Shown here one piece after another: positions 2,115 through 52,090 of a stretch of DNA of 64,000 nucleotides. Source of the DNA: Paraspadella gotoi (taxonomy: Eukaryota > Animalia > Chaetognatha); NCBI GenBank assembly GCA_051294375.1, contig CM119265.1:14269221-14333220 (forward strand). The letters run 5' to 3'. The notes beneath the pieces are model-generated. The model saw only the letters and a list, made by a program, of their open reading frames with translations. It made no database searches and was not told the DNA's origin. The position numbers were made by a program, and so were the translations under genes. How positions within the stretch are numbered: the stretch's first letter is position 1; each line of letters begins with the position of its first letter.

Positions 2115-2210
2115 TTTTTTAACGATAGGATCCAAGGTTTATAGACTGAACCTGGAAAACAAACGATGGAAAACGAACCAATAACAAAAATACGACTATG
2201 TCCCTAAAGT

Positions 2211-16719: not shown

Positions 16720-17077
16720 TATTTTTAACCTTAATTTATTGTAACCTTAATTTTTACCCAAATATATATTGGTTGTACCAATTTCATATAACAATAATAA
16801 AATATATTAAAAAAAAATTATGATATCTGAATTTTTTTATTTTTTTTCCCGAAACGTTGTCTTTTTTTTTAAAATTCTTTAAGAAAAACCTTGCTCTTCG
16901 TTTTCCCATAGGCCTCCAGAGGGCATTGATCTCCAGGAATGCCAACATGGGAAAAAAATAAAGGAATTCAGATATCATAATTTTTTAAAATATTTTTTAT
17001 TATTGTTATATGAAATTGGTACAACCAATATATATTTGGGTAAAAATTAAGGTTACAATAAATTAAGGTTAAAAATA
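16720..17077. repeat. Long inverted repeat (~113-bp arms, ~130-bp spacer)
   Basis: 16720-16833 is the near-perfect reverse complement of 16965-17077. Confidence 0.85.
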
Positions 17078-29100: not shown

Positions 29101-32100
29101 ATTCTACGAACGCCCCTTTGAGTGAAAATTATAAGAATTCTATCGAGGCGATGGTACCTGGTGCAGATTCTGTGCAAGAATCGGGAACAGTTGAGGTTGT
29201 CGATGTTCAACAATCTCTCAAATTAGTCGACCATGAAAAATCGTCAGGGTGTTTTGAAAAATTTGTAAGTCTTGTCAGCCATGATAAATCTACAAAAGAG
29301 GTCGATGTCAAAGATTTTCCTTCTTTGATGGAAAAACTTCATTTACCTGCTGATATATTAAAAGAATCTCGTCGCAAGGAAAATGATTTTGAAAGAGAAT
29401 CCAATCCGGATTCAATTAACAGTAGTGAAAAGATTATATTTGATAAACAGAAAGATGAACGTCAGTGTCTTAAAATAGTTGACAAAACGCTTCATAAATT
29501 TTCAACTTTTCCCGATAACACCGAGCAAAATTTACAAGAAAATTCTGGTTTATCAAGCCCAAATACTTTTGGAATGCTAAAGAAAGGAACTGAAAGAAGT
29601 CCGGTCATCACTTATGTTAATATAAGTGAAAATATTTCACCTTTCAATGAAACATCGAGAAAACGGGTAATTGACACACCAAAATTAAGTTTGGGCTATC
29701 ACTCTCAACTTTATTTGCCGTCTCAACTGACACTTACAAAACCAATTCAAAATGTAAACCTAAAAACTCCAGCGGGTGATGAAATCCAGTTAATTCAAGT
29801 TTCCTCTTCCTCTGAAGGAGTTAAGCACGGACCATCTCCACTAAAAAAGTTAAAAACAATCGATAATATTACTCTCACTAGAAATCAAAATATGAGGCTA
29901 TCAGTCGTAAAATCTGCTCTAAAAAAGTTAGAAGGATACATAAAAAACTTAAAAACAGATGATTTTGATATAAATGGCTTTAACATCAGTTCAAAGTTTA
30001 GAACTCAGAGAAGATCATTAAGAGGAAGTGGAGAGGATTTAGCCTGGTCCCGAGAATTATCAATGGGGAAAAAAGTACTAGTTAATAAAACTGAATCCGA
30101 AATGATTCCAGGTGTAGCTAATGATGCTAAATCAAAGTTGCCCCCTGATTTGCTAACGGTTACCGACAAAGTGCTTAAGCAACATTTTAAACCGTTAATA
30201 GTAGCAAATCTAGAGGCGAAAGACCCTAACATTTGCGCTCACGCTAAAAAAATATCTCTTTCACAGGTGCCCGAGCTTTTAACATTGAACTTGAAACCAC
30301 CGGATGAACCCGATAAAAACCCGAGCGAAAATCTCGGTAATTCTGCGGATTCAAGAAATAAATCAGAAGGCTTTTATTGCAAACTCTGCCCGTTTTCTGT
30401 TTCTACTAAAACTGATATTCTTGCGCACCTAGTTAATGTTCATCACAATTCTCCTTCTTCGGAATTTATTTTTTTGGGGGACTCTGTTGATAAATTTGAT
30501 AAAAAATCTGTCGCAGCGACATTATCAGTTCTCCCCAAGAGTAAATCATGTAAGCGAAAAGTAGCTGAATCGCCAAGTTTCGATGAAGGTGATATAAAGA
30601 ATGTTTTTGAAGGTACGGTCAAGGATCCCTTTGTTAAGCTGATAAGATTGCACAATGAAGAAAATTCCGAAAAGCAAACGCCTGTTATTAAGGATTCGAG
30701 CGGCTTATCCGATTTTATTTCTAAAAAGCAAGAAAGAAATCGAAGCTGCCAGAATCAACAAGATACCAAAGCATTCATGGAAAAGGAAAGGTTAGCTAGT
30801 CATTGGGAAGATACCAGCTGTGATGAAATACTCGGCTCGCTCCCTAAATTCGGGGTGAGGGTTTGCCCTAGAATTCGACCGGCATCTAAGTTAGGGACTC
30901 CGAGTAGTTCAGTTGGCCGACTCGCCGCATCTGATATTTCGCGTAACGTTCTACCTAATTTGGGCACGCGAGTTCGACAAAAAGATTCTTCAAACCAAAC
31001 TGTTGAGTTAAAATTTCTTCGCGCAAACGCATCTTCTGTTATAAGTGACGAATCCTTAAAGGCAAATTCTACAGTAGACGCAACTCATGAGACTACTAAA
31101 AAGAAACCTCCGGATCAAATCGTCGCGTCAACCTTCGCTCCGAACGTGCCTGGGATTACACCCCTGGAACCAACAAGGCATGTCAGAATTTGGAATTGTA
31201 GTGCTGTTAAAATTGTTTTGAGTTCAGATTTTCAAATTATTTTTTTTAAATTCTCATACCAGAATAAATAAGTAGTCTTCTGTTCCCAAACGTAATTTGA
31301 ATTGAATTGAAATGTTTAAAATCGTAAAGAAGACATGGACGGTGATAAGTATAAACTGAAGAGACAGTAATTATTGATATGTGTTTGGATCAGGCTGTAA
31401 CACCATGTTACAGGCGGGTTTAGCGCCCTGTCCCTCTTAACTGCGAGGCGACCACTGGGCTAGAACACCAGACCTTTGGGTTGGGAGGCGAATGACTTGC
31501 CTCCGGCACCAATGGCCGATGATGAACGGTTGGTTGATTTAAGTCCACCATACATTCCCCCCTCTGTTGCGTCTCTTCAGTGAATTGTTGTTGGTGGAAA
31601 GTTCGTCACCAAGTTGAGGCATGTCGCCTGATGTGTTGTTGGCGGAAATATCATCGCCAGGTTGAGGCATGTCGCCTGAAAGTGTTGTTGTTGCTGTTGT
31701 TTGGAAGTCGGGCTCACCAATGAAGAGACAGTAATTATTGATATGTGTTAATGACAGAACCGTTCATTATATTTATAAGCAGTCCCTGAGCTTTGAATCA
31801 GGCTGTAACACCATGTTACAGGCGGGTTAAGCGCCCGGTCCCTCTTAACTGCTAGGCGACCACCGGGCTAGAAGGGTTGGGAGGCGAATGACTTGCCTCC
31901 GGCACCAATGGCCGCTGATGAACGGTTGGTGGATTTTAGTCCACCATGAAACATTAATTGTATTTTAATTATGGAAAGGCAGTGCGAATGCAAAAAACGT
32001 TATTTTTTATCAAATATAAGTCGTCTTCAGTGGAAAAGCGTTAGGAAGAATTGTTTATTCGTTCCAAATTGTCACTTAAAAAAGAAGTTGAAATGTTTGG

Positions 32101-35100
32101 CAAAAATATCGCTTCTTGTCCTCGAACTGCCACTCCATAATGGAAATACAATCTAGAGCTTATTTATTTTTTCTCAGTATTCTAATTTTTATAAAAAAAT
32201 CCTAATGTTATGGCAACATTTGGATTGCCTGTGATGCCCATTGGGATGGGGCATCTCACTGTTGGCTTTGGGGGCTACAGACCCTCAGTGACGCTACCTG
32301 TCACTGGCGCGGTTACACTAGGACGGTCTCGCTTTGCCAACCCAGAGGGAAGTCGTTAGGAATGTGAATGGAACGTAATACTTGGGATGGTACGGTTCCC
32401 CCTCTGAGCACATGGGATTGGCTGAACGATGGTGTGAATATACCGCCACAATGTTATCAAAAAAATGACCAAAAATAAGAGAGGTTGATTAAAGACTAAA
32501 GGCTATTTTCAAATTATCTCTTGGTTTCCTCTCTCTGTCTAACAACTAAAAATTAAAACTAACACAAATATATCTGTATTTTTATAGAAAGTCCAAGAGA
32601 CGCGCTTCCCTTGGCTCCAAAACTGATGCCTCATCGGCGGAATGCGCCTCCGAAAACGAAGCTGTGGCAAAACGCCCTCGAAGAACGTCACGGATTAGTT
32701 TACCGACCGAAAAAATGCGAGACAATCTCCAATCGCGAAGGAGCTTGACGCTGATCGATACATCCGGCGGAAGGAGAGCACGAATTACTGGGAACATGAA
32801 TGATTGCCTGGTTGGCTCTTCGACTCCCTCGAAAACTGACTCTGATAGACAGTCTCGATCAAAGAAAACGTCGTTAGAATCCCAAAGCACAATGGGCGAG
32901 ACGAAGTAAGTACATTTTGTAGCGCTGGCCACTGGTCACTGGTCAGGCACGATGAACTCATGAAGTTTTTAGTCGGATCTGCTTATAAGCAGATCCCGAA
33001 TCTATAATTCACTTTGTCGGTCCGTCGGTCCGCCCCCTCAATCTTGTCGGGCATTAACTTATTTAAAGTCAGAACATCGAATTTTGATAAATTATGCAAA
33101 AAAAACTATGTCCGTCCGTCCGTCCCACCTTAACAAAAAACACCAATTACTCGTGATTGGATGGATGGATTGGAATAAAATTTTGTATGTGGTTAGGGAA
33201 GTGTGTGATTGAGCAGGATATGATGTTTCGATGGAATCGTCCGAGTGGAAATGAGTTTAAATGGAAAAAACAAGAAAATATATTTCATTATTTGAACACT
33301 AATTACTCATGAGTGGATGGGGCAATTGACCTGAAATTTTGTATGTGGGTAGGAAAGTGTGTGATTAAGTTGGAAATCAAGTTTCGATGGAATCGTTTGA
33401 GTGGAAATGAGTTTAAATGGAAAAAAACAAAAAAACTGTTGATTATGCTTCTTTTTCCTTGTAAATGTATAAATTAATTAATTAATTAATTATTATTTGC
33501 TCAGACTTGTTTTTCTCTGGGCGGAAATAATTAAATAATTTAAAACGAAAAAGGAAAAAAAAAATGTTTGTAATAAATCAGTGTAGCTCGTTGCAATATA
33601 TTTTTCAAGTATTTTTTGCTGCTTCATCTCCTAAATTTTTTACCCCTAGAACGACGCTGCTATCATCCGTCCGCACGGCGTTCGATAAGATTATGGACGT
33701 ATCAAAACGAGTTCCACAACACGATTGGCAGGAGGATTTTGAGTTCTCCCCCTCTGCAGATCTGTCTTCAACGAGGCCGGCTACCCTCGGGGATCCGGCG
33801 GATAGTGGGATTGGGGGATTCCACGTTTTCGTTGAAGACGCGGAGGGGGAGGATGTCACCGCAGAATTCCCCGCCATAATCAACGCTGGGTCATCTCCTT
33901 CCGGCGTCGACTTGCAGGTGTATCCAGTGCTTGTACGTCACGTGACACCAATCTTTAGTTTTCCGAAGCGTCCTAGTTATCTATCTGGGAAACTAAATAA
34001 CTTCCCTCTTGAAAACTCGAAAAAAATCAGTACAACGGAGTCTCCCTCGTCCGCTGTTTTCAAAATGCTCCATCGAGATTTGGAGTTCCACATCGAGGAC
34101 GAAATTAAGATTTCAGCATACGAAGGGCTGACAGAGATCAGTCAAAAACCCGTCGACCCCATAGATGCTATATTTAGATCGGAGGCGGAGGATACAATTG
34201 AAAAGGAAACCGATGAGTTAAAGAACGGCGAAAAAGAAGAAATATTATATCGAAATACTGAAGATTTTAATTTCGGAATCTTTGACCGCTCCTGGAAGAA
34301 GAAGAATGAGGAAAAATTATTTGGACAGAATTCTTTGAATGGGAGTGACCAAAATTATCTTTCATCACGACTTGATAACTCTCGTGAAGGAAAAGAGAAA
34401 TCGTCCGATACGATGGTTAATCTTGAGTCGACTATTGCGGAAAACGGTGCAGAAAAAATGACTTGCAAAGGAATCGTGGGAAAATGCAAGAGGTAAGTAA
34501 GCATGTAAACCTTTATTACTTAAAAAAATAGTCACGGCATTATGTTTAATGAGATTATTTAATGTCGTATGGAATTTTAGGTAAATCTTTCGCTTAAAAA
34601 GAAAATTCGTTTTCCTCTAGCTATTTCGCAAAATGCATAATCCCATCCCAAACAGATTAATAATATTATATTTAAATATTTAACACAAAAATATTTTAAA
34701 AAATAAATGAAATCATAAATAATAGTTATTTTAAATCTAAATTTAAAAAGAAATAAATAAAAAAATAACTAAATAAATAAATAAAAAAAGATAGTAAAAC
34801 AAGTAATTTTGCAACTTTCATAACTTTCATCTCTCATATCTCTACACTCTACAGGTTACGTTGGAACAATGCAAAGCTTCCCCGCCAGAAGTGCCTGTAT
34901 TGTGATGAACGTAAATTAAAATCTCGATTATGGAAGCATATTCAAAAGGTTCATCCCGCATTGGCACGAAGTCCCCCTTGTGGTTTTCCAAAGAGCAGAA
35001 AGGTTATTTCAAGCCCCCGTGTCGACAAATGTACGTTTGACTTTTGTGACGTCCTGGATAATTGTGCTAATATTGATACGCATTGGAATTATCTCAACAG

Positions 35101-37373
35101 GTTGGTTTTTAAAAGGAAAATTGAATAAGCTTCGGCTTCCCTAAGACGATTGATTCATTCCTCTTAGAATTATAATCGGTTAATTTTATTTTCTGATTGT
35201 ATTTTAGGAACCAAAAAAGAAAGAAAAAGAGTTCAAATTGGGAAGAAACCATGTTTAATTATCAGCGGCTTCAAACATCGCTCTTTGCCTATCAACCTGT
35301 ACCTGTTGACGAATGCGAAAAAAAATTTCAATCAAAAAATTGTTCAAACGTTTATATGCGACAATATGCTGGTAGGATTATTTAAATACATGGGCACAAT
35401 TTGAAATCCGTCGCTAAAATCTATTAATCGAAAACATATTTTGAAAAAAGATGTTTAAAGGCAAGACTAGCTTATTTTCTAAACAGAAATATCTTGTTAT
35501 TCGGTTAACATTTGTTTTGGCAGTGAAAGCATTGATTTAAAAATTGTTACCCTAACTCGATCGCATATAATAACGCTTGCGACGATTTTGTGACGATGGA
35601 CCCCATAAATGGCGTCTTCGTCGTTTGAGGCGTTCCAAATTATAGATATTTTTTTTTAAAAATTATTTGTAATTGTATGAAGCTGAAAATTTTAGATATA
35701 TATTCTCATCATCAAGCTGCTTGAAAAACTTATACATAAAAATGAATTAACTGCAGGTCCAGCTCTAATCAAGTGCTTACAGCACAAAGATGGTTTATGA
35801 TAAAAGAAAAGCGAAACTATATTTTGAAATAAGTCTAATTTCTCTTTCCAAACGTCTCGAATCAAACAGCAACTTCTGTAATTGAGACGTTTTGCATAAC
35901 ATCATTTTTTTTGCATCGTTCCGTAACAAAATTTTATAAAATTTTGGCGAAAATCAAGATAAACCGCGCAGTTTTTTTGACTGCAATTCTCCCGATTAAT
36001 TAAAATGTAGGACTGAGAATCAGAATGTCCCACGCATCCCCTATAGAACTGTCAATTTTCTAACAGCGGCTATAGTAGAGCCAAACTTCGTCAATGGGGT
36101 GGGTCAGAAGTTTGATTTGGGAACCTTTCCAAATGAAACTTCATACATTTCTGAGAAAACTTTCAATGGAGCAAAATTTTCTAAAATGGCAAGAAGCATT
36201 AGTAATTAATTTTTTAATATTTATTTATAGATAGGAAATGTCAAAAATTTTTTTTTATTTTTAAAAGCAGATTCAAATTGCTTATGAAAAGTTATCTACA
36301 CAAAGTATAATTCTTTTTTCAATATTTTGATAATAAGTGGGTTAAATTTGAGAAAAACCTTAAAAAATCATCATCATCATCCGATGATTTTAGCAGTTTT
36401 TACTAATTTTTAGTAATAAAACATCAAAATTTTAAAAAGTTGTAATTATATTTTTTGCTTAACTTTTTAAGCTCTATCAGAATCAATTAAAAAAACTTAA
36501 AATATCTAAAAAAAATTTTTGATATTATATAGCGATATAATAATATTAATTAGCGAATTACTCAGTTCGAAACATTTTTGCAAAAAAATATTTTAACACA
36601 ATAATTAATACTAATAATGGATTAGTTTAATTCTGTTCCCATTAAAATTTGAATTTGGTCGGCTACCGCTAGCTATAGTGGTAGGAATGATAGCATTCCC
36701 AATGGGCGCGGTTGCAAAAGCATGCGCCGCCTTCTCTAGACACTTTTGAAGGTCATGGTTGCTCAAGGTAAATTTCTTTAATAGATTGATTTTTATATGT
36801 ATACCAATTTTTATACCATTCAAACGATTTTTTGACTTTAGTCCCAAAAAAGCTGGACCTCCCTGTAGAAATTTCCTCTTGTAAAATATTAAAATCTATT
36901 TGCGTTTTAGTTTTGCAAATTTTTTTTAGCGGCGAGTTTCAAATGTATAATTGTTTAAAATTTCATTCTTTGAACGCGTATATAATATATAGTATATACT
37001 GAATAGCGTAAATTAATTTTGATCTTAGGTCTGGCGTATCATTGTAAGAATTGTGACGCCGTTTTCCGCAATTACCTTGGTTTTAACCGACATCGACTAA
37101 CTATTCATCGCCTCGACAACAATTTGAAATGCCCACAATGCCCGTATGAAACCACTAAAAACGCCAAACTCAAGCATCAGATTAGCTTTATACATAGTAA
37201 AATTAGGTATTTATATTTATTCGTTATTAAAAATATTAATTTAATCATGCTCTTCTAGAATGCATCGCTTATTTTTCTTATACAGCAACGCACCGTGTAC
37301 ACTTTGTTCCAACTGGTTCAACGCACGTTTAATCTTGGCTTATTCAAGAAAGATCTGCCATAGTAAAAGTTGA
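20181..37373 (+). CDS. Very large, mostly low-complexity C2H2 zinc-finger protein with a Gly/Arg-rich N-terminus. Approximate exons: 20181-21250, 21431-21561, 21849-21977, 23408-23487, 23552-23697, 23921-31177, 32588-32905, 33650-34492, 34855-~35030, ~35209-35371, 37030-37206, 37286-37373
   Basis: Spliced C2H2-type fingers: CPGC..FDDHI, CANC..HIRNEH, CRLC..HIETSH, CKLC..HLVNVH, CLYC..HIQKVH, CKNC..HRLTIH. A 2446-codon ORF forms one exon. Phases agree up to 34492; the 3' exon joins are uncertain. Confidence 0.75.
31357..31948 (-). mobile_element. Family A non-autonomous LTR element (twister retrozyme): LTRs 31721-31948 and 31357-31552, PBS 31707-31719, PPT 31555-31565
   Basis: Direct terminal repeats each hold a mutated twister. 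PBS TGGTGAGCCCGAC, PPT AGAGGGGGGAA, TSD AAAC at 31353-31356 and 31949-31952. Confidence 0.85.
32209..32450 (-). mobile_element. Family B solo LTR (mutated twister at 32261-32341)
   Basis: Minus-strand ends TGTGGCGG...CATA; TSD ATGT at 32205-32208 and 32451-32454. Confidence 0.8.
32966..33515 (+). mobile_element. Second HINE-like family (GTCGGATCTGC subTIR, GTCC microsatellite); other pieces at ~51108, 56640-57010 and ~62480-62510
   Basis: 5' TTTT..GTCGGATCTGC..GCAGATC and (GTCC/GTCG)n; the 3' GCAGATCCGAC + TTTGCTCA(A/G)ACTTGTT end is seen at 56976-57010. Confidence 0.6.
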
Positions 37374-38189
37374 GGCCTCGAGGCAAGGCCGCGACTGCGA
37401 CTTACGCGACGCAAGATTTCGTCGTTTCTCTATTTTTTCTGTCGTCATTAAAGAAGCTATGATGTATAGAAGCGATGTATTTAAAAATATGAAGAAACTG
37501 GCCGAGCGTTTGCTCAGAAACTATGAATTTTGTTTTAAATCAGATTGACTCATCCTTTTTGTTTTTTAATTTTCTTATGCCAATTTTTGTATTTCCTTGT
37601 TTCTGTACAAAAGGTGATGAGTTTGTTTTTGTTGACAATGTGTACATATTTTCTCCTCTTTACCAGTCTCAAAATATTCGATGTATTATGCGTTGTTCTT
37701 TGCTTTTATTAAATGTGTGATTATCAATTATGTTTAATAACTCGCTGGAAAATAAAACCAGTGCGAAACGAATTTACTCGTTTTCAATTTCTTGAAGAAT
37801 TTTAATCTTGTTGAAATTCGCATAAAGGATATAAGGCCAAGTGGTAGTTAGTGACAATTAAGTGTAGAACCTTTTTCGAAGTGCCTTTATTAGATGGATG
37901 CAACAAACTCTAGCATTGTATCCTTGATCTCCACCATGTTCTCGCATTGCACGTGTATAGATGCGTTATTGATTGTTTGTAGTACTTAATAGATTTTATT
38001 TATCTTCATAGAGAACAATGCATAATGCTTCTTCAATGTAACGTTATGATTGTATGTGACTATCAAACTCGTGTTTCGCATAAATCTTGTCTTTCAGGTT
38101 AACATCTTTAAGAAACGAATATGATTTCCTAAAAACAAATGGACGTTTTGAAATAATAAATCAGAGCCAGGGGAAAAATTAATTGCCAT

Positions 38190-38362
38190 TCCCTCAGTCG
38201 TGACCGGTTGGATCATTGAGTAAAGTGACTACGAGGCACTAGGTGCAATCTAAACTCAGTACTTGCTCTACGGGAAGCGTGAGGACGGCCGTAAACACCC
38301 TTGCGGGCGTGGGAAACTCTTTGGCTACTAGTCATGTTCAGCCCATTTATGGCTTTATCCCC
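38190..38362 (+). mobile_element. Degenerate family D LTR fragment
   Basis: ACGGGAAGCGTGAGGACGGCCGTAA (5' half of the twister) is retained; P4 is deleted. Confidence 0.65.
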
Positions 38363-39692
38363 TTATATGGCGTCGTCGTCCTTTCATTTCCTTTGCATTT
38401 TTATTTTATATAAAAGCCGGGCCAGAATTTAACATTTTTTACAATATAAAACGGTCTGCCGTTAATGTCTTTTTTCCTTATACAGCTGATACAATTTATT
38501 TTAATATTTAACAATATAGTATAAGAAATTGTTTAACATTTTTTTAAAACGGATTCTGATAGATCAAAAAGTTAAATAAATCATAATATTTTTATATTTT
38601 TAAACATAAAAAATCCTTTAAATTTTTATCAGAATTTAATAAAAAAAAAACAATTAAATAACAAAATTTTATATTATGTATTTCATATTATACATATACA
38701 ATCATGAACATTTATACATGCATATTAAGGCCGGCCAAAATTGAACATATATATATACTCTTTTCAAAAATATTTCTTTTTTCCTTCTATTACTAAATCG
38801 ATTTTTCAATGCAACTTTTTTGAATTAGTTCATTGGGTTTGCACTGAAGCTTTTAAATATTTATTAATATATAACAAATGACAAAAATTTAAAAAAAGCT
38901 TTTGCCCATAAGTGGCGTCGTCGTTGCGTGCGGCGTTCCAAATTATAGATCGCCTTTTTTATGATTAAATTTTTGGTGTATGAAGCTGAAAATTTATATA
39001 CAGCTTCTCATCATCGATGTGCTTAAAATTGAGTCTGGACAGTTATTAAATATGTTTTGTTTACGTTTTATCAAAACAAACAATTTCTCTTTTATTTTCA
39101 TATTTCTTTCTCTCTCTCTTTTCTCTTTTAATTACATGTCTCTCTCCCTCTCTCTCTTTTCCTAATCACTGATGTCATAATCATAGGGAAAAAACGAGTC
39201 TGTAACTGTAACTTTAATTTTCTTCGGTACCTTATTTTTTATTAAAATCGTAAATAGAATTTTTTTTTTCTGTTTATTAAATTTATTTTTTTCTCAAATT
39301 TTTTTTTCATCAAAATTTTTTCTCAAGGCTGGTCTGCTGATCAGTTTATTTACAATGACAATTGACAAGGACAAAAAAAAACTTTCTTTCTGTTTATAAA
39401 TAATTTCTTTTTCTCAAATTTTATTTTTTTTTAGTATTAAAATTTGTCGTCAATTCAGATTTATTCCTATGCGATTGCGACGATCCTTATGCTTTTAAGA
39501 TTTTTTTTTTCTCTCTCTCTCCCTCACTCACTTTCACCATTTCAAAATCAACTTACTTCCCATTTTTCCTGTCCTTAACTTCACCTGTCCTCACATCTGA
39601 CCACTGTTCTTTCTCAATTCTTTGTTGGAAAGTGTTTCTATCTCTCTCTCTCTCTCCTCTTTACTTAAAAATGTGAAAAATTGTCTATTATC

Positions 39693-39739
39693 AAACGCTG
39701 ATGAAGACTCGCAAAGTAAGAGTCAAAACATGTCCGTTT
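39693..39739 (+). ncRNA. Hammerhead remnant with a G12A core mutation in a PLE pLTR fragment
   Basis: aaacg CTGATGA a GACTC..GAGTC AAAAC AT GTC cgttt. Stems are perfect, but GAAA has become AAAA. Confidence 0.7.
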
Positions 39740-41604: not shown

Positions 41605-42304
41605 AAGGCCTGGTTTTACAGGGCGCCACACCCACACACGGTGTCACCTCGGGCAACAGCGAGACAGCATGTTCATGTAGTCGCAGAGCTTTGGATCTGG
41701 AGTAGGCCCTTTGGCTACAGGCGGGTTAACCCGGTCATTTTCCACTTTCTACATGACAACCTCAGGGCTCGAACAGGGACGCACAATTGGGATGGTGCAT
41801 TAGTCCACTGAGGCGCTGCGAAAGAAACAGTTTTAATCCATCTGCGGTGATAAGACCACCAGACAGCTGCCCCCAGGACTCTCACATATGAGAGTACGAA
41901 GCAGGGGATGAAGTGCATGTCTCTCCACTGAACCTCTCTTCATTCTGGTGGTCTATGCGGAGTGGCAGCTGCGTAGCTCAAACCACATCAATGGCAGAGG
42001 AGTATTATCATGCCCAGTTTGCGTGTTCGGATCACGTCGGGCTCACCATTGAGGCTGGTTTTACAGGGCGCCACACCCACAGCGGTGTCACCTCGTGGCA
42101 ACAGCGAGACAGCATGTTCATGTAGTCCAGACCTTTGGATCTGGCAGTAGGCCCTTGCCTACAGGCGGGTTACCCGGTCCATTCTACTTTCTACATGACA
42201 ACCTCAGGGCTCGAACCAGGGACGCACATTGGGATGGTGCATTAGTCCACTGAGGCGCTGCGAAAGAAACAGCTTTAATCCATCTGTGGTGATAGGACCA
42301 CTAT
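41605..42304 (-). mobile_element. Family C twister retrozyme: LTRs ~42050-42304 and ~41605-41865, PBS 42031-42048, G-rich PPT ~41866-41874
   Basis: 445-nt repeat period; PBS TGGTGAGCCCGACGTGAT; TSD not clear. Noisy mirror copy at ~45290-46100 and a fragment at 15705-15850. Confidence 0.78.
42119..42197 (-). ncRNA. Twister ribozyme, type P5, family C (other copies at 41674-41755, 15705-15779 and ~45405-45487; each is imperfect)
   Basis: By-eye consensus: P5 CATGTAG/CTACATG; GTGG GA TGG [ACCGGG] T^AA CCC GC C; P3 GTAGG/CCTAC; G CCAGA TCCAAAGC TCTGG. T1 is CCA:TGG. Confidence 0.72.
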
Positions 42305-43716
42305 AAAGTAATATTTAATATTTAATCCATCTGTGGTGATAGGACCACCATAAAGTAATATTTAATATTTAATCAAGAGGAGTAATATAAATTTTTTTTT
42401 GAAAATGATTGTTTAAATATTTAGTCAAGACAAAAATACTTTGCTAATAGTCGAAATTTTATATTATCTCTGGAGTTGGTCCCTATCAATAAGCATTGTT
42501 TTAAGTTTCTATATCTTAGTAGAATTCAGCCATTCAATACGGTTTTTTCGATGTTAAAAAGTGTCTTTTTTTTTCGCCTCAGTGTAAAGCATCAGTAAAA
42601 GTCATGACGCTCTGGGTGAAGTACTGATACTTAGCTCACTTTTATGAAATAAACACTAATAAGTATTCAATAAGTAGCCATTGACAACACAAAAAAGCCC
42701 CAATTTAACCNNNNNNNNNNNNNNNNNNNNNNNNNTTTCAGATATAACGATTGAGAACTTACTAAACCTTATCATTAATATTATAAAAAATAAATATTAT
42801 TTTACGGTTAAATGCGACGGAGCCTTTTGTGTTGTCAATGGCTAAACTTAAAGTGAGCCTAGAAGTATCAGTACCTTAAAAACCTTCATGCCTATTATTA
42901 ATAAGTTTGAATTAGGTATAATATTTTGCGGCTGATTAAAACTTAGCAAAGCTATGGTTTCTGCAGAATTGCCGCGGGTAAAGCAAATGTTTTCTTAATT
43001 CATATAGGCAATTTCTGAATCAAAATATATCTGCTATTATTATTTTTTAACAGATAAATAAAACAATATTATTCTCATTTATTTGATTGTTACATTCGTT
43101 ATCAACATATATTTTCAATTTGTCTTATTACTTATATTTTAAGCCCAAAAATACTTTTCCCAGAAGGTTGTTGTATGAAATATGATTATCAATAGTACCT
43201 AGCCATGGCCATTTATTCTGTAATCTACTTGAGCTACTTACCAGAAACACAGAACCAATAAAATTATTTAACGGAAGATTATTCATTGATATTAATCTAA
43301 TTAATTCCATTAATTAACAGATAGTTAAAGAAATTAGTATTAACAATGAGGATGGCATACATTAAAAGAGATTTGCACATAGTACGTATTCAGTTGTATC
43401 ATCTGATATGATTGACAAGATTAAAACTCGCATCAAAGATGACTGTAACAATTGTAACAAGTCGCCCAAAATATTTTGTTATCTTATTTAGAATGGCAAA
43501 GTTATTAGCAATTCTTTGCCAGAATATGATAAGGAGTTACTCAAATACCTCCCCAAGTCTGATTATATTAAAAAATTCGAGCCAAATAATATATCATCTA
43601 CTATCATTTTAATATATTCTTATTGGTTGTTCTTTCTATTTGTCCTTATGTTTTTAAGATTTTGGAGAGAGAAAAACAATTTCTTTAACAACAACGACTT
43701 TATTCACGATATAATA

Positions 43717-43761
43717 AACAACATGTTTCGGACTTTTAATTTTAAATCTTTCATCAGGGTG
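43717..43761 (-). ncRNA. Degenerate hammerhead (PLE type)
   Basis: Minus strand CTGATGA...GAAACATGTT; stem I pairs poorly. Confidence 0.4.
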
Positions 43762-46700
43762 CGGCCTTATTTAATCTTTGATAATACATAATTTTTTGTT
43801 CTCCACAAGTAATAACAGCACCACTGAGAAGGCATGGACGGCGAAAGAGAGAGCAGAGGAGAGAGAAATACAATGCTTTCTTCTATAACAAAGAAATAAG
43901 AAAATAGACAGTGGTGCAGTTTTGGGATAGCGGTAGTTTGAGCAGACGAGAGGAGAAGGTTAGGTGAGGAAAAAAAAATTAAATTTGGGCAGAAGAAAGA
44001 GAGAGAGAGCAATGCAAGAGAGTCAAATATAGCATCCAATACATTATACATTCTATACATTATTCATCTTCTTTCTCTCTTTGTCACAATTTCAAATTTC
44101 TTTTTCCTCACCACCATTCTTTCTCCTCTGCTCAAACTATACCCATATCCTCACAAACTCGGACAACTGTCATTTTTTTTTTTAAATTCTGTGAAAACAT
44201 ATTATTCTCTCTCTCTCTCTCTTCCCTCCATCCCTTTCACTGTTTATTGCTGAAACAAAAAAATTGATTGTACTATAAAACTTAAAAATAGCACTGATAA
44301 AGACTTTGCCAATTAAATCGCAAACATTTATGTTTAATCTAATAAAAAAAACGTTGTTGTTAAATGTTTTTTTCTCTAAAATCGCAAAATAGTTGTCTTA
44401 CTATTATTTTCATCATTAACAAAGATTTAATGTAAATAAAAAATGACATCTGTTTGAACATCTTGAAAAATGTTATCTCTATTAAAAACAACATATAATG
44501 GACCCAACCCCTGCTCACCAAAGCTGAGTTAAATTGATAAATATTTTTAGCTAATTAATTTTATTTTTACAAAAATCTATTTGTCTTTCATTACAAGTAT
44601 TCGAAAAATATTTGGGCCTAAAACTTATTGCATCTTCAACTGTTGAGCAAATAAAGATCTTTAATATGTTATATTTGCATAAAGATTTTGTTTTAAAATT
44701 AATACCCGAAAAAAAACTTATCCTATTGTTTTTTTTACTTTTAAATTATACATTTTGATAATATTTGGCTTTTAAATTATTGAAGAAATATTTCCCTTTT
44801 TAAATCTTAGCCAATTAGATCATAAGTTTGTCAGTTATATCTCTAGTTTAAAGCTCTGTTTCCCTTAATTAAAAATTCCCGTACTCTTACTTATTCAGTT
44901 AACTACTAGGGTAAACCAAAAAATTGTCTCCATTACTATTTAGAAAAAAATTTTGCTCTAAGATTCACCGGCTATTATGATGCTTTTACACTGAGGCGAA
45001 AAAAAAGACAACTTCTTAACATCGAAAAAACCGTATTGGCATAGACGCTGAATATCTACTAAGAATATAGAAACTTAATAACAATGCTATATTGATAGGA
45101 CCAACTCCCGTAAAATTGTACATTAGCAAAGCTATTATTTATAATATTTCGACTATTAGAAAAAAAAAAAAAAAAATATATTTCTTAATAAATATCTAAT
45201 CAATCATCTTTCAAAAACAAATTTATATTACCTCCTCTTGATCTATTAATATTCTATGCCATCACCAGATGGACTAAAAATTAATTACTCTCTCTATGGT
45301 GCGTCCCTATCACCACAGATGGCATTAAACGCTGATTTCTTTCGCAGCCGCCTCAGTGGACTAATGCACCATCCCAATGTCGCTCCGCTGGTTCGACCCT
45401 GAGGTTGTCAATGCAGAAAGTAGAATGCGCCGAGCAGTAACCCGCCCTGTTAGGCCAAGGGCCTACTGCCGATCAAAAGCTCTGGACAATAGAGAACATG
45501 CTGTTCGCGTTGGCCAGAGGTGAAAGCCTGTGTTGCGTGCATGTCGCTTGGCCTCCGCTCCGTCCTAGCTAAAACCTGAGTCCTCAATATCGCCGAGTTC
45601 GGAGGCGTGGGATGGCCGGACAGTTGCCGATCCGAACACGCAAAACTGGGTAGAGGGGGGGTCAGGGGCGAAAGGAGATGCATAATACTCCTTCTGCCAT
45701 TGTATGTGGTTGAGCTTTACGCCAGCTGCCACCTTCCCGCATAGAGGACCAAGCCAGCCAATAGAAGGATGAGCGTTGCAGGTGTTTTCCGTACGAGTTG
45801 ACATCGCACAGGCGTGTCATCCCCGTCTTTGGAATACATGTGTAGCTTCGCGCTCTCGTCATGTGAGAGATTCTCGGAGGGAGGACTCCCGCGCTCTGGC
45901 GCGCTCTCTAATTCACCGCCAGATGCGCATTAAAACGGTTTTTCATTTCGCCCAGTATACGCGACGCCTTCGCATCTCCTAGGCCGTAAAGTGACACCAA
46001 AGGGCCATTCCCAAAATCTGCGCCTATGACGTCGCCCTGCTCTCCGGTTCCGACCTTGAAGGTTGTCTAATTGCTAGACAAACATTGGGAATGCGAAACA
46101 AAAAAAACCTCGTGGAGGAAATCACCAAAGCCTGTCCAAGTTCTACCCGCCTGTAAAGAAAGGAAGTGGCAAGATAGCTTACTTACTAAATGAATAGATA
46201 ATTTTTATATAGGTCCTGTACCAATGTCATTATAAAAACTAAAGCATCAGCGTTGTTCGTAAATCGCCAGTAGTTCCCGCAATACGTCGTGCGCCTCACT
46301 AGCTAATCGGATGAAGGAAGACTCCGCCTTCACGCGAAAATCTCTTCATCGATCTCTCGACGCGCCCGCCCCAGTCAAAGTCGTGACGTCGACGACGCAC
46401 CCCTGGCGGAGGAAGGAAAAGACGATCGTGGAACGCACAGTACCACCCAAACATCGACACTCCACTTGGAGGATGGGGAACGGTCTGGTGGCTGACTTTA
46501 TATCTTTGCTTTGTGACCATCTGACATTTTTTTCCCCTTTCCCATTAATCAATTAAGCTTACGATTCTTTTCTCGATCCACCTGTAATACTCCTGGACAC
46601 AGCGGTCCGGACACTCCACTTAAAGATTATGCAACCTGTCCAAGTCCGGAACGGCCAACGCTCCGTCGTGACGATTCCACTTAGTGAGGCCACGTCACCC

Positions 46701-46932
46701 TGAGCGTTCCGCCGCAGAGATGCTCCGATCCGTAGATCCAATTGTATAAGCTCAACGCTGACCTGTTGGATCCAAATTTAAAATATAAAAGTCAATTTCT
46801 ATTTTTTTTTCACTTCCATTGAAACACTGGCGCATTTCTAGAACCCCCTCCTCGACCTAGCGGAGAGGGAGAAGACGTCGAGACAGAACTACCCTCAAAC
46901 CCGGGGGGGCGGCGGCTCCAGAAAGTTAATAA

Positions 46933-47166
46933 TATGGTGGACTAAAATCCACCAACCGTTCATCAGCGGCCATTGGTGCCGGAGGCAAGTCATTCGCCTC
47001 TCAACCCAAAGGTCTGGGGTTCTAACCCGGTGGTCGTCTGGCAGTTAAGAGGGACGGGGCGCTTAACCCGCCTGTAACATGGTGTTACAGCCTGATCCGA
47101 AGCTCAGGGACTGCTTATATTGAACGGTTCTGTCACTAACACATAACAATAATTACTGTCTCTTCA
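46933..47166 (+). mobile_element. Family A solo LTR with an intact twister
   Basis: Same ends as the 31.4-kb LTRs (TATGG...TTCA); TSD ATAA at 46929-46932 and 47167-47170. Could be an assembly collapse of the mirrored full copy at ~49545-50166. Confidence 0.75.
47041..47114 (+). ncRNA. Twister ribozyme, type P5, family A (most intact copy)
   Basis: P5 GCAGTT/GACTGC; GAGG GA CGG [GGCGCT] T^AA CCC GC C; P3 TGTAAC/GTTACA; G; P4 CCTGA/TCAGG with loop TCCGAAGC. T1 is CCG:CGG and T2 is GC:GC. Confidence 0.85.
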
Positions 47167-49544
47167 ATAATAAAGTTTTTTATGCCTTGTGAAACGTCTT
47201 GAAGTTTAATGTTAATGTTTAATGTTAAACTAACAATAAATAAAAATAACAGAACACAAGTGATCGCAGAAGAAACACGGAGTAATTATGTAAAAGCACA
47301 GAAGCTGTCCAAACGTCTATTTAGTGTGAAGAGTCTGATCCAAATGTCGAATTCCGAATGATCACAAGAAATGGACAGTGAGCCGAAAGTCAATATCTCT
47401 CTTAAACGGGAGACAAAAAGAGCATCTGGGTTACGGTCGTCTTGACTTTACATATTCAAATCTCCTATCGCATATTTAACTTAAAATCCTGCCGAATTAT
47501 CATGACTCGACAGTTTTTAGTTCTCGCCTCGCATGAACTCGAGGAGGTTTATAACCGAAAAATAATGATGTTTTCGATCTACTTTTTTTAGAGAATAAAA
47601 AGGTACAATTATTTTAATAAAATAAAAATAACAATTCATTCGTGACAATGCTGCTTTTTGGAAGTGGTTTATGCCCACTCAATGGGGTCAGGTATACAAG
47701 AAATTTTTAAATGATTACATACTCAATATAGGCTGTATGTAAAAATTCTAAGTTTATAGCTTTAATTAAAATTCCTAAAAGTGGAGGAACGAAACGAACA
47801 TTAATTAATGAACATTTATAATATATATTTTTTATAATTGTATGCAGATGGGCGATTATTTATACTAGGTAACTTGGAAAACAATAAATGTTTAAAATTT
47901 TAAAACAGTTTTTCTAATGATTTTGTTGTAGATTTGATTGGTCAATATAGAAGTTAATAAAAGAAAAGTTAACTTTTTTTTGAAAAATGCCTTCATTAGA
48001 GTGGCGTGCAAAATTAAGAAAATGCTATAATTTTTAAGCTGAAATGTAACTTTTTATTATATTAGCATAGCTATTTTTTTTTAGAATTTTGTTGAAGTTG
48101 ACNNNNNNNNNNNNNNNNNNNNNNNNNNNNNNNNNNNNNNNNNNNNNNNNNNNNNNNNNNNNNNNNNNNNNNNNNNNNNNGAGAATAAAAAGGTACAATT
48201 ATTTTAATAAAATAAAAATATCAATTCAATCGTGACAATGCTCTTTTTGGTAGGGTTAGCCCCACTCAATGGGTTCAGTCAAAAATTTTTAATGATTACA
48301 TACTCAATAAGGCTNNNNNNNNNNNNNNNNNNNNNNNNNCAGTACTGGATTAATGATGGCCGTACTGCATAAAATATAAAATTAATATTATAAATGTCTT
48401 ATATAATGTTGTTCGTTCCTCACTTTTAGAATTTTAATTTAAAGTACTAGAATTAAAGCCTTATTTGAGTAGCTTGTAATCATTAAATATTGACTGGACC
48501 CCATTTGAGTGGGCTAACTACAATATAAGAGCATCACGATTGAATGTTATTTTATTTTATTTAAAATAATTGGTACCTTCTATTTATCTAAAAAAAGTAC
48601 GATTCGAAAACATCATTATTTTTCGGTTATAACTCCTCGAGTTCATGCGAGGCGATGAAACTGAAACTGTCGAGTCAGCATAATTTCGGCAGGATTATAA
48701 GTTAAATATGCGAGTAGGAGTTGATATGATATGTAGAAGTCCGACGACCGTAACCCAGATGCTCTTTTGTTCTCCCGTTTAGATGAGATATTGGACTTCG
48801 TCAGCTGTCCATTTCTTGTGATCATTCGGAATCTCGACTTTGGATCAGACTCTTCAGACTAAAATAGAACGTTGTACAGTTTCTTGTGCTTTCACAATAA
48901 TACCCGTGTTTCTCCTGCGACACTTGGGTGTTCTATTTTTATGGTAGTGTTGATACATTAAACTTCGAAGATGACAAGTGATGAGACAGAATTGTGGTTA
49001 GTGACCAAACCGTTTCAAATACAAGTGTGTTAGATCGCAAAGACTCACAAATCATGGAGGTTGATCGTGGTTTATAACTTATTATTGCTTGAATGATCGA
49101 GAACTCTTATCGGCTGACCTCTTCGGGTCTGCGGGGAAACCCTCAAGACCCAAGAATTGGCGGGCGGAGGTGATGCGACGAGATTTATTAAACAGTTTAT
49201 CTCTTAATCTTTGGTTTCTGAATGAATTCGTTAACAGGGTACCTTATAAAAATAATCAAAGCATATAGATATTTCTAACAGTACACAATATATATCAAAA
49301 GAAAATCATTTATTTAAACTTAAAAGAATTACATGATTATATAAAGAAAAACGTAATGATTCAGAATGCATCTGAATAATACTGAAAAGAATGCTGAATT
49401 TCGACAAAATGAGGCTGATCACGACGATGACGAATGTAGAGGGAAAAGATTATAAATTAAACGGTAATCCTTGTGACGACTCCGTAATAAAAGGTTTCAA
49501 CACATGTCATGATGTGTGAGTTCTTTGGATTCCTAACCTAATTT

Positions 49545-50166
49545 CAGTCCCTTGAGCTTCGGATCAGGCATGTAAGCACCTGTTTACAGGCGGGGTAAGC
49601 GCCCCGTCGCCTCTTAACTGCGCAGTACGACCCTCGTTCGGACCTTTGGGTTTTTAGGGCGGAATGACTGCCCTCCGGCACCAATGGCCGCTGATGAACG
49701 CGTTGGTGGATTTTCGGTCCATATGTACATCCACCCCTCCCGTAGGGAGAAGTCTTGTTGCGTCTCTTCAGTGTTTGTTGTTGTTGTTTGGAAAGTTCGT
49801 TCCACCAAGTTGAGCATGTCCGCCTGAGTGTGTTTGTGCGGCAGAAAGTGCATCGCCAGGGTGAGGCATGTCGGCCTTGAGTGTTGTTGTTTGCTGTTGC
49901 TGTTCGGAAGTTGGGCTCGACATATGAGAGACAAGTAAATTAGTTGATATGTGTTAGTGGACAGAACCGTTCATATAAGCTAGGGTGTTCCTGTAGCTTT
50001 CAGATCAGGCTGTATACCATGTTACAGGCGGGGTGAAGCGCGCCCGTCCTCTTTAACTGCCAGACGACCACCGGCTTAGAACCCAGACCTTTGGGTTGAG
50101 AGGGAATGATCTGCTCCTGGCACTCAATGCCCGCTGATGAACGGTTGGTATTTTAGTGCCACCATT
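49545..50166 (-). mobile_element. Family A element in noisy mirror-duplicated sequence
   Basis: Two LTR copies plus the internal region matching 31357-31948, with many small indels. Confidence 0.6.
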
Positions 50167-51405
50167 ATTATTAACTTTTCTGGAGGCGCCGCCCCCCCGG
50201 GTTGAGGGTAGCATTCTTGGTCTCGCGTCTTCTCCCGTCTCCGCTAGTCGAGAGAGGGTTCCGTCCAGAAGCTATAACGATGAACTACTAAATTGATAAT
50301 ATAATAAAAACAATAAATATTTATTTAGTTACAATGGGGCTTTTGTGTTTTCAATGGCTACTATTGAATTACTTATTCTAGTGTTTATTTCATTAAAATG
50401 ATGCCTAAGTATCATACTTCACCATCTCTCTCTTTTAATTTTAAAACAGTTTTTTCTAAGATTTTTTTGTAGATTTAGATTTGTCATAAAAAGTTAATAA
50501 AAAGAAATTAACTTTTTTTGAAAAATTCCTTTATTAAGTGGGTCAAAAATTAGAAAAGGCTATATTTTAAGCTGAAAATTAACTTTTTATATATTAAATA
50601 TATTTTTTTAAATTTTTAACCCACTTAATGAAAGAATTTTTAAAAATTATTTATATTTTCTTCTATTAACTTTTGACGAGGAATTCAAATCTGCAATCAA
50701 AATTAAGAAAAGCCTATTTTGAAATTTTTCGATTTTATAAGGATAGTACTATATATAAATATAGCCTACTGCAAAAATTAAAAAACATAAAATTAATTTT
50801 TTTTACAAATTAATGTTCACTGATGGTATGTTGTTCATAATTAACTTTCACTACGTTCTAATGCTCAAACAAAAATTTCTACATTTTGAAGTATACTTTC
50901 AATGGACAAAACAATTCTTATGTGGTTCTATACCCAAATAAACCAGATTCAGATAGCTCATAAAAAGTTGTCTACACAAAGTATAATTCTTTTTTTAAAT
51001 ATTTTCATGATAAGTGAGTCAATAATGATTGCTTAAATAGTCAAGACAACTAAAAATACTTTGCTAATAGTCAAAATTTTATATTATCTCAGGAGTTGGT
51101 CCCTATTTTTGGTCGGATCTGCTTATCGCAGATTAGACTATAATTAGGGGTAGCCGCACTTAATGGGGCGAGTCAAAAATTTAGAGTTAGTACATACTCA
51201 AACAAAAATTTATACATTTTTAAGTATACTTTAAATGGACAAAAAATTTCTTATACCCTCTATACCCTAGTAATTAATTTTTTAATATTTATTTATAGAA
51301 AGGAAAGGGCAAAAATTTTTTTAAAAAATTTTAAATTTTAAGACCAGATTTCAGATAGCTCATAAAAAGTTGTTTACACAAAGTATAATTCTTTTTAAAA
51401 TAGTA

Positions 51406-52090
51406 ATTAAATAAGGCGCTACGTGGGCTGAAGATGACTGTCCGTAACTTCTATAACCCTCTAGCAGCCATGGAACGGCGTCCCTGGGTTTGGAACCAGG
51501 CTTGAGGGTTTGCCGATGCCCCCAGGCGGCTTACGGCCGTCCTCACGCTTCCCGCAGGTAGGTTACGGGTTGGGATTGAAACCGGTACCTAGTGGTCATG
51601 AGCTGATGGCTTTACTCAATGAGCACCGGGTCACAACTGAAAGTTCATGAATTCTAGGCAGGGTGACCTAGGCAATGCCCGATTACATGCCCCCCAGATT
51701 GTAACCACCCTGCACTGCTTCCAGTGGAAGGAGGGGAGCAATCTTCACCTAGACCAAGGCCTGGAATCAGAAGGTTGGAATACGCTCGACAGGATGGGCT
51801 CACCAGTGTGGATAGGGCGCTACATGGGCTGAAGATGGCTGTCCGTACTTCTATAACCCCTCTAGCAGCCATGGAACGGGTCCCTGGGCTTGGAACCAGG
51901 CTTGAGGGTTTGCCCATGCCCCCAAGGCGGCTTACGGCCGTCCTCACGCTTCCGCAGGGTAGGTACCGGGTTGGGATTGAACCGCGGTACCTAGTGGTCA
52001 TGAGCTGATGGCTTTACTCAATGAGCCACCGGGTCACAACTGAAAGTGTCATGATTCTAGGCGTGGTGAACCTAGGCAGTGCCGACTACA
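51406..52090 (-). mobile_element. Family D twister retrozyme: LTRs 51807-52090 and ~51406-51687, PBS 51796-51805, PPT 51688-51695
   Basis: 400-nt period; LTR ends TGT...ACA; PBS TGGTGAGCCC; PPT GGGGGGCA; possible TSD AGTA (left end degenerate). Confidence 0.8.
51876..51955 (-). ncRNA. Twister ribozyme, type P5, family D (second copy at 51475-51555)
   Basis: Minus strand: GCGT GA GGA [CGGCCG] T^AA GCC GC C; P3 TTGGGGG/CCCTCAA; G CCTGG TTCCAAGC CCAGG. T1 is TCC:GGA. Confidence 0.82.

What the first reader, a model, noticed from the sequence alone, without database searches (positions are those of the whole stretch)
31357..52090. Animal LTR-retrozymes built on twister ribozymes (families A, C, D; solo LTRs of A and B)
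Seen: three 590-700 bp non-coding elements, dissimilar outside the ribozyme and PBS (31357-31948, 41605-42304, 51406-52090), share one minus-strand layout. Each runs LTR with twister, PBS starting TGGTGAGCCC, a 120-185 nt internal region, a G-rich PPT, then a second LTR with twister. Families A and B have 4-bp TSDs. Known: plant LTR retrozymes use hammerheads and Ty3/Gypsy machinery; animal retrozymes are non-LTR hammerhead tandems; schistosome twisters sit in non-LTR retrotransposons. Inference: cleavage at both twisters would release monomers of 408 (A), 445 (C) and 400 (D) nt with 5'-OH and 2',3'-cyclic phosphate ends. These could be ligated (e.g. by RtcB) into circular RNAs and retrotransposed by an LTR retrotransposon in trans. 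I do not know of a described twister-based LTR retrozyme in animals; novelty needs a literature check.
Basis: partly seen in the sequence, partly recalled or inferred. Interest (0 to 1): 0.95.

Follow-up and report, generated by a model that had tools for sequence, protein, structure and literature searches.

The report
Twister-ribozyme LTR retroelements in an animal
This animal genome holds many copies of tiny non-coding LTR jumping elements whose end repeats carry a tRNA-like promoter followed by a predicted self-cutting twister RNA with a self-complementary first helix; the two end copies likely pair and cut out a 400-445-base RNA that could circularise, a plant-retrozyme-like layout not found described for animals or twisters in the papers searched.

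Summary
Largely confirmed, with corrections. A, C and D are non-coding LTR elements with a tRNA-Trp primer site and a purine tract. A has 4-bp target duplications, and over 130 short-read contigs leave it at each fixed LTR end. Every LTR holds a type-P5 twister fold whose pseudoknots co-vary across five families. Of the six flagged LTR copies only D's 5' one is intact; for A and C most family depth carries the pairing letters. Rfam's threshold is not reached. Two features were missed. First, P1 is a 6-8-nt self-complementary word (4 of 6 positions in C) that cannot close a stable hairpin alone, which points to pairing between the two LTR copies. Second, a tRNA-like box A/B promoter lies just upstream, as in Helenus TRIMs. 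B is not a solo LTR, and a fifth family, E, exists. Cleavage, dimer use, transcription and circles are untested, and twisters tolerate loss of P1. Ten literature searches found no twister LTR retrozyme or dimeric twister. Unchecked notes of this scan report palindromic-P1 twisters in Naiad elements of other genomes.

The parts
31357..31948 (-). Family A full element (5' LTR 31721-31948, PBS from 31719, PPT 31553-31566, 3' LTR 31357-31552 with a 44-nt deletion); both twisters decayed in this copy; 4-bp TSD
   Evidence: both junctions spanned without difference by single-copy contigs of run X1 (table 8)
31778..31853 (-). Twister fold in A 5' LTR; predicted cut 31829/31828; first pseudoknot mismatched here but paired in over 90% of family depth
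46933..47166 (+). Family A solo LTR (TA..CA ends, 4-bp TSD); best-preserved copy
46966..47038 (+). tRNA-like segment in A LTR (7-bp acceptor stem, box A at 46974, box B with one mismatch at about 47018): predicted Pol III promoter
   Evidence: ARAGORN only at a relaxed 85% threshold; none at default
47040..47115 (+). Intact type-P5 twister fold; P1 segment 47058-47063 is a 6-nt self-complementary word; predicted cut 47064/47065
41605..42304 (-). Family C full element (5' LTR to 42050, extended tRNA-Trp PBS 42048-42019, PPT 41864-41883); box B 42207-42217; twister 42118-42197; predicted cuts 42172/42171 and 41728/41727
51406..52090 (-). Family D full element (TG..CA 5' LTR 52090-51807, PBS from 51805, PPT 51688-51697); box A 52028, box B 51973-51983; intact twister 51878-51959 with 6-nt palindromic P1; predicted cuts 51934/51933 and 51533/51532
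9478..9802 (+). Family B unit: intact twister fold 9687-9750 (palindromic P1, compensated second pseudoknot); terminally redundant, no PBS or LTR ends
6101..6448 (-). Family B second copy with about 50 nt of terminal direct repeat (unit 297 nt)
59679..59939 (-). Family E (not in the finding): TG..CA solo-LTR-like unit, twister 59730-59810 with 8-nt palindromic P1
32211..32440 (-). Family E second, decayed copy; family depth carries the pairing letters and the palindrome
15698..15784 (+). Truncated family C LTR piece with twister remnant
38194..38320 (+). Truncated family D LTR piece, P1 palindrome kept

Best explanation
Families A, C and D are high-copy (shown for A and C), non-coding miniature LTR retrotransposons whose LTRs carry a tRNA-like promoter followed by a twister-ribozyme fold; they likely work as retrozymes, in which the two LTR twisters would pair through a self-complementary P1 and cut out a 400-445-nt RNA that would be ligated into a circle and copied back by a Gypsy element. 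SHOWN: layout, fixed LTR ends, target duplications (A), tRNA-Trp primer site, twister fold with co-varying pseudoknots, self-complementary P1, box A/B. INFERRED: (1) Pol III starts at the tRNA-like segment of the 5' LTR and, with no run of four T inside the element, reads through both twisters. (2) The P1 words of the two LTR copies form an intermolecular helix, as short-stem hammerheads do. (3) Cutting at both U-A steps leaves 5'-OH and cyclic-phosphate ends and no terminal redundancy, so this RNA can be reverse transcribed only after ligation to a circle (RtcB-type ligase). A circle holds one twister and would be slower to cut itself. (4) A tRNA-Trp-primed Gypsy element, probably of the CsRn1 lineage, supplies reverse transcriptase and integrase.
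For: Mobility: 138 and 148 X1 contigs leave A with unlike flanks at 31721 and 31947; summed contig depth is 2.7-6.8e5 on the 5' LTR bins against 35-70 on flanks (not a copy number). C: 9 contigs leave at 42301, LTR depth about 1e5. TSD in 2 of 2 A copies. PBS: 27 of 30 nt of C match the complement of a human tRNA-Trp printed in 10.1101/400127 (compared by eye). CsRn1 lineage uses tRNA-Trp and 4-bp TSDs (PMC3630058). Twister: strict descriptor 3 hits against 3 in 30 shuffles together; 86% of cells paired, 8 of 11 pairs change on both sides, 0 of 500 shuffles reach the covariation score. Family depth holds the pairing letters at 92-100% in run X1 (A 31794, 31796, 31837; C 42132, 42183, 42185; E 32277, 32279, 32317), a sign of selection on the fold. 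P1: the descriptor left it free (3-22 nt), yet 3 of 3 hits are 6/6 self-complementary; all five families have a palindromic central 4-mer, in four different sequences (chance about 2e-5 if independent). Duplex -8.1 to -11.0 kcal/mol against hairpin +3.6 to +5.6, or none for C; two-copy folding pairs the words in 3 of 4 domains. Promoter: 2 of the window's 3 exact box B matches lie within 40 nt upstream of the C and D twisters. Natural twisters tolerate P1 and P2 defects (PMC11662667).
Against: No cleavage, RNA or circle data. Rfam scores are below threshold. P2 is only 2 bp plus a mismatch in A-D, against 4 of 4 bp in 46 of 51 parsed phage twisters. P1 is reported as dispensable (PMC11662667), so pairing between copies may not be needed. 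C's P1 has only 4 of 6 positions paired. In two-copy folding A did not pair its palindromes. Predicted circles are not unusually structured: z = -1.7, -1.2, +1.3 (decayed copies). Lack of T runs is weak alone (P 0.31, 0.16, 0.26). A's box B has a mismatch, and D's 3' LTR gave no box B hit. The covariation test used 12 sequences from which the structure was itself read, and its shuffles ignore kinship. No autonomous partner was seen. D has no read support and no TSD.
Confidence: 0.55

Rival explanations
1. The twisters are active but cut as monomers (P1 reduced to 1-2 bp or absent). The palindrome serves as a genome-dimerisation signal for packaging into the helper's particle.
For: P1 is reported as dispensable and its defects do not lower cleavage (PMC11662667; PMC8501958). 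C pairs only 4 of 6 positions. Six-base palindromes act as dimer signals in retroviruses (recalled).
Against: The palindrome fills exactly the stretch between the first pseudoknot strand and the U-A step in five families, including B, which lacks LTR features and so is unlikely to be packaged by a Gypsy particle. The same design is known for hammerheads (PMC6765202).
Confidence: 0.2
2. A Helenus-type TRIM that transposes as linear RNA. The twister only makes an RNA end, standing in for the oligo-T terminator, and circles are absent or by-products.
For: Uncut or singly cut transcripts keep terminal redundancy and could use ordinary strand transfer (inference). Most published Helenus LTRs that I read have a T-rich stretch right after the tRNA-like part, where these have the twister. 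Circle folding z-scores are unremarkable.
Against: Both LTRs carry the same ribozyme, and a P1 formed between them activates both sites, which removes the redundancy. Plant LTR retrozymes of the same layout accumulate as circles (PMC4918200).
Confidence: 0.18
3. The folds are twister-like but do not cut: relics captured from a Penelope-type element, or non-catalytic structures.
For: Rfam scores below threshold; short P2; isolated A and D domains prefer a competing hairpin in minimum-energy folding without pseudoknots.
Against: The catalytic G and U-A-A, both pseudoknots and P4 are kept with compensatory changes across five unrelated families. Family depth carries the pairing letters where single copies have decayed.
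Confidence: 0.07

Closest known systems
Plant LTR retrozymes (Cervera et al. 2016, PMC4918200; review PMC7761336)
   Same: Non-coding, two LTRs each with a self-cleaving motif, PBS, PPT, 4-bp TSD, Gypsy-type ends; cut-to-cut monomer.
   Different: Animal host; twister instead of type III hammerhead; tRNA-Trp instead of tRNA-Met primer; 400-445 nt instead of 600-1000 nt; tRNA-like promoter; circles not shown.
Helenus TRIMs (TRIMp3; Kojima 2024, PMC10886601)
   Same: TRIM under 1 kb with tRNA-derived box A/B in the LTR; animal members have 4-bp TSDs and Gypsy-type PBS, some tRNA-Trp; some LTRs begin TA.
   Different: The paper names no ribozyme in them. Four twister-loop words from this window gave 1 hit in its supplement, in an internal part. 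In the LTRs read (3 of 11 supplement parts) the tRNA-like part is mostly followed by a T-rich stretch and a short end, without room for a twister.
Type-P5 twister ribozyme (Rfam RF02684)
   Same: Strand order, catalytic G-A and U-A-A, both pseudoknots, P4 loop, closing P5.
   Different: P1 is a 6-8-nt self-complementary word, not a hairpin; P2 is 2-3 bp; P3 is present in A, C, D, E; below gathering score.
Dimer-cleaving hammerheads of Penelope-like elements and amphibian non-LTR retrozymes (PMC6765202, PMC7229834)
   Same: A palindromic, too-short helix next to the cut site, completed by a second copy.
   Different: Different ribozyme class; tandem non-LTR repeats. Family B resembles these in layout.
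Twister T-variants of Schistosoma Perere-3 (PMC8501958)
   Same: Twister in an animal retrotransposon, with imperfect P1.
   Different: Autonomous non-LTR element, single 5' ribozyme, P1 made with the target site.

Membership tests
Twister ribozyme (type P5) | Catalytic G-A and U-A-A around the cut site | tested here: met
   family depth
Twister ribozyme (type P5) | Two pseudoknots and P4, with covariation | tested here: met
   3 of 3, 1 of 2 and 3 of 4 pairs change on both sides
Twister ribozyme (type P5) | P1 as an intramolecular hairpin | tested here: not met
   6-8-nt self-complementary word, hairpin energy positive or impossible
Twister ribozyme (type P5) | P2 of about 4 bp | tested here: not met
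   2 bp plus a mismatch in A-D, 3 bp in E, against 46 of 51 phage twisters with 4 of 4
Twister ribozyme (type P5) | Rfam gathering score 37.6 | tested here: not met
   25.6 bits for B, 16.7 for D, no hit for the A solo LTR
Twister ribozyme (type P5) | Self-cleavage at U-A | not testable with these tools
   needs in vitro transcription
LTR retrozyme | Two LTRs, PBS, PPT, no coding capacity | tested here: met
   A's longest ATG frames are 43 aa; 0 of 5 frames over C, D and the A duplicate hit Pfam
LTR retrozyme | 4-bp target site duplication | tested here: met
   A: 2 of 2 copies; C and D inconclusive (decayed ends)
LTR retrozyme | Type III hammerhead in the LTR | tested here: not met
   twister fold instead; no hammerhead hit in Rfam; my descriptor, written for type I order only, found none
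LTR retrozyme | Monomer accumulates as circular RNA | not testable with these tools
   only assembled contigs were available
Helenus (TRIMp3) | TRIM under 1 kb with PBS and PPT | tested here: met
   592-700 nt
Helenus (TRIMp3) | tRNA-derived box A and box B in the LTR | tested here: met
   exact box B in C and D 5' LTRs, one mismatch in A, box A 33-46 nt upstream (consensus recalled); cloverleaf only at relaxed thresholds
Helenus (TRIMp3) | Descent from a described Helenus lineage | not tested
   no sequence comparison run; the paper itself proposes several origins
Solo LTR (family B) | TG/TA..CA ends with a short TSD | tested here: not met
   terminal direct repeats at unit spacing instead

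The most novel reading that the evidence does not exclude
An animal has evolved LTR retrozymes independently of plants, from three borrowed parts: a tRNA-derived Pol III promoter, a twister ribozyme that fires only when two copies pair through a palindromic P1, and the ends and tRNA-Trp primer site of a CsRn1-type Gypsy element. Pairing would act as a copy counter: the two-LTR precursor cuts, the one-twister circle is spared. Several families in this genome would then produce viroid-sized circular RNAs, and this would be a natural dimer-dependent twister.
Probability: 0.35. Interest if true: 0.92.

Novelty: new variant of a known kind. Interest (0 to 1): 0.8.

Why it matters
Reviews and a 2026 preprint divide retrozymes into plant LTR and animal non-LTR kinds, both hammerhead-based. 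These elements would break that split in host and in ribozyme class, and would join two separately described groups (Helenus Pol III TRIMs and retrozymes). They give eukaryotic twisters a testable role beyond the Schistosoma Perere-3 case. A naturally self-complementary P1 in five families makes dimer-dependent twister cleavage directly testable with 60-90-nt transcripts, and could serve as a concentration-sensitive RNA switch.

Tried and rejected
No genome is held for this window, so genome-wide counts, TSD statistics, tandem arrays and the autonomous partner could not be examined. A 424-nt X7 contig that 'goes back 450' over C is expected from assembling two similar LTRs and is no evidence of a circle. 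No exact empty site was among the joints shown (15 of 85). Relatives elsewhere: the short-P1 pattern gave 0 descriptor hits in 69 viral loci and 1 weak, probably chance, hit in 120 of about 540 metagenome loci. PBS patterns in viral contigs gave 0 hits, and 0 of 41 loci held the full 18 nt. A model built from window copies hits the P4 loop in nearly all of 100 phage twister loci, but those loci were chosen by that loop, so this is weak. Relaxed ARAGORN also called the twister regions tRNA, so only the boxes are leaned on. The relaxed descriptor separates from shuffles only at score 23 (3 real, 0 in 8 shuffles). An early idea that the motif was twister-sister-like or rearranged was dropped once both pseudoknots parsed in twister order. 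Rfam found no tRNA in two LTRs.
Full report
Host and data. The window is from an animal: an RNA polymerase I subunit exon is at most 51% identical to marine invertebrate proteins and falls in the animal clade with 99/95 support, on a long branch (one exon, 22 of 60 hits used). No genome is held. Nine public runs from 3 studies hold the region, as contigs only. The assembly has N gaps and noisy inverted duplicates (45.3 kb copy of C, 49.6 kb copy of A; 81 and 56 gap openings, shared flanks), which I do not count as insertions.

The elements. A (592 nt), C (700) and D (685) each read LTR, one spacer base, PBS, 118-187 nt internal part, purine tract, LTR. The PBS word occurs exactly three times in 64 kb, 0.04 expected. 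In run X1, 138 contigs leave A at 31721 and 148 at 31947 into unrelated AT-rich flanks; the same two ends appear in X5, X6 and X7. Summed depth over the 5' LTR is about four orders above the flanks; the tool warns this is no copy number, but the family is clearly large. A has 4-bp target duplications in both copies with two ends. C has a fixed 5' end in 9 contigs, and a 3-nt insertion seen in 87% of X1 depth makes its 3' end word equal to A's. No coding capacity was found.

Primer and helper. C matches the complement of a human tRNA-Trp at 27 of 30 positions (sequence printed in 10.1101/400127, one passage; compared by eye), 12 nt beyond a normal PBS. One mismatch falls at tRNA position 58, where a methyl-A normally stops reverse transcriptase (recalled), which suggests read-through of the primer. 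A and D keep parts of the same extension. tRNA-Trp priming with 4-bp TSDs characterises the CsRn1 Gypsy lineage (PMC3630058, passages). That helper is inferred, not seen.

The ribozyme fold. A descriptor demanding the catalytic G-A, U-A-A, both pseudoknots, P2 and P4 found 3 sites (A solo LTR, B, D 5' LTR) against 3 in 30 shuffles together. A relaxed version added E. Across 12 copies of five families, 86% of cells pair and 8 of 11 pairs change on both sides; slid controls reach at most 55% (the structure was read from these sequences and the shuffles ignore kinship). The flagged A and C copies are decayed. At the broken positions 92-100% of X1 depth carries the pairing or catalytic letter (39 variant rows were not shown). 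A model of these copies finds 16 sites at E below 0.005, 12 of them its own training set. Against: Rfam scores stay below gathering, and P2 is 2-3 bp where 46 of 51 parsed phage twisters (of 85 distinct contexts) have 4. A large test of natural twisters found P1 and P2 defects tolerated and pseudoknot mismatches harmful (PMC11662667, passages and half of section 32). Activity of the family majority is therefore likely, and the flagged A and C copies are likely weak.

P1 is self-complementary. Between the first pseudoknot strand and U-A-A lie only 6 nt (8 in E): GGCGCT (A), AGGCCT (B), ACCGGG (C), CGGCCG (D), TCCTAGGG (E). The descriptor did not ask for this. All five have a palindromic central four, in four different sequences (about 2e-5 by chance if independent). 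As hairpins they cost +3.6 to +5.6 kcal/mol or cannot form; as duplexes between two copies they gain 8-11. Two-copy folding pairs them in B, D and E but not in A. The one type-P5 phage twister parsed has a normal 6-bp hairpin. This parallels hammerheads with a palindromic short stem III, which cleave as dimers (PMC6765202 and PMC7229834, passages). Because P1 is reported as dispensable, monomer cleavage with the palindrome used for packaging remains a real rival.

A tRNA-like promoter. Directly 5' of the twister, C and D have an exact box B and A has one with a mismatch, each with a box A 33-46 nt upstream. Relaxed ARAGORN draws a 73-nt cloverleaf in A that ends 2 nt before the ribozyme. This is the mark of Helenus TRIMs (PMC10886601: main text parts 1-4 of 6, supplement parts 1, 7, 8 of 11 and one string search). 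That paper mentions ribozymes only in a reference title. Most Helenus LTRs I read have a T-rich stretch after the tRNA part; A, C and D have no run of four T on the sense strand (individually not significant). B and E gave no boxes.

Mechanism. A Pol III transcript from the 5' LTR would contain both twisters. Their P1 words would pair, both would cut, and a 408, 444 or 401 nt RNA without terminal redundancy would result. It could be copied only as a circle; RtcB circularises animal retrozyme monomers in vitro (PMC7229834). Singly cut or uncut RNA could still use ordinary strand transfer, which is the second rival. Predicted circles are not unusually stable. All RNA-level steps are untested.

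Families B and E. B is a 300-320-nt terminally redundant unit without PBS, more like Penelope-mobilised non-LTR retrozymes (10.64898/2026.07.22.740005, abstract and passages; it never mentions twisters). E is a high-depth TG..CA unit of about 260 nt with 6-bp flanking repeats. The same ribozyme design thus sits in at least two kinds of mobile element here.

Novelty. Ten searches of the held library found no twister-based LTR retrozyme, no animal LTR retrozyme and no dimeric twister. PMC4918200, PMC7761336, PMC7229834, PMC9695139 and PMC11722881 (passages) describe animal retrozymes as non-LTR hammerhead repeats. PMC8501958 (passages) links twisters to a non-LTR element, with 1.6% of its variants upstream of LTR-type reverse transcriptase, not pursued in the passages read. 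10.1101/2022.07.19.500677 (passages) reports twister circles in metatranscriptomes and plants. Subscription journals, Repbase, Dfam, the 2014 twister paper and unread supplements could hold a prior description. Two unchecked notes of this scan describe abnormal or palindromic P1 twisters in Naiad elements of other genomes; I did not test them and they are not support. None of the six look-ups showed an LTR case.

Verdict. A real, mobile, twister-fold-bearing TRIM group that combines Helenus and retrozyme features: a new variant of known kinds, interest 0.8. My odds: element and fold 0.9, cleavage 0.8, pairing between copies 0.6, circle route 0.5.

Noticed in passing
window 59679-59939 (-) and 32211-32440 (-): Family E: high-depth TG..CA unit with a twister and 8-nt palindromic P1, 6-bp flanking direct repeats (perfect in one copy, 5 of 6 in the other), no box A/B found; a full two-LTR form was not seen.
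   Followed up: partly
window 9478-9802 (+), 6101-6448 (-), fragment near 46110-46237 (+): Family B: terminally redundant 300-320-nt twister unit, candidate Penelope-mobilised non-LTR twister retrozyme.
   Followed up: partly
window 45200-45960 (+) and 49556-50340 (-): Indel-rich inverted duplicates of C and of the A solo LTR locus with shared 5' flanks, near N gaps; likely uncorrected long-read sequence. The 49.6 kb copy is a two-LTR form with the same 5' flank as the solo LTR, possibly another allele.
   Followed up: partly
window 31177-31355: Contigs of X5, X6 and X7 stop matching the window at 31177 while X1 continues: possible structural polymorphism next to element A.
   Followed up: no
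window 52759-54207 (+): Broken reading frames next to D; no Pfam hit, but one frame resembles HTH_animal clusters at 0.96, which I recall from Penelope-like elements. An exact box B lies at 54256-54266 (-).
   Followed up: partly
window 42019-42048 (-), 51766-51805 (-): Primer-site complement runs past tRNA position 58, with a mismatch there in C: a possible record of reverse transcriptase reading through the methylated base.
   Followed up: partly
window 860-2138 (-), 2211-15546 (-), 23913-31271 (+): Host genes: a SPO11-like gene, RNA polymerase I second subunit, and a 2452-codon open frame with no Pfam match.
   Followed up: no
window 16720-17077: 97-nt arms of an inverted repeat, 97% complementary and 164 nt apart, sharing a short stretch with the B terminal repeat; MITE-like.
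   Followed up: no
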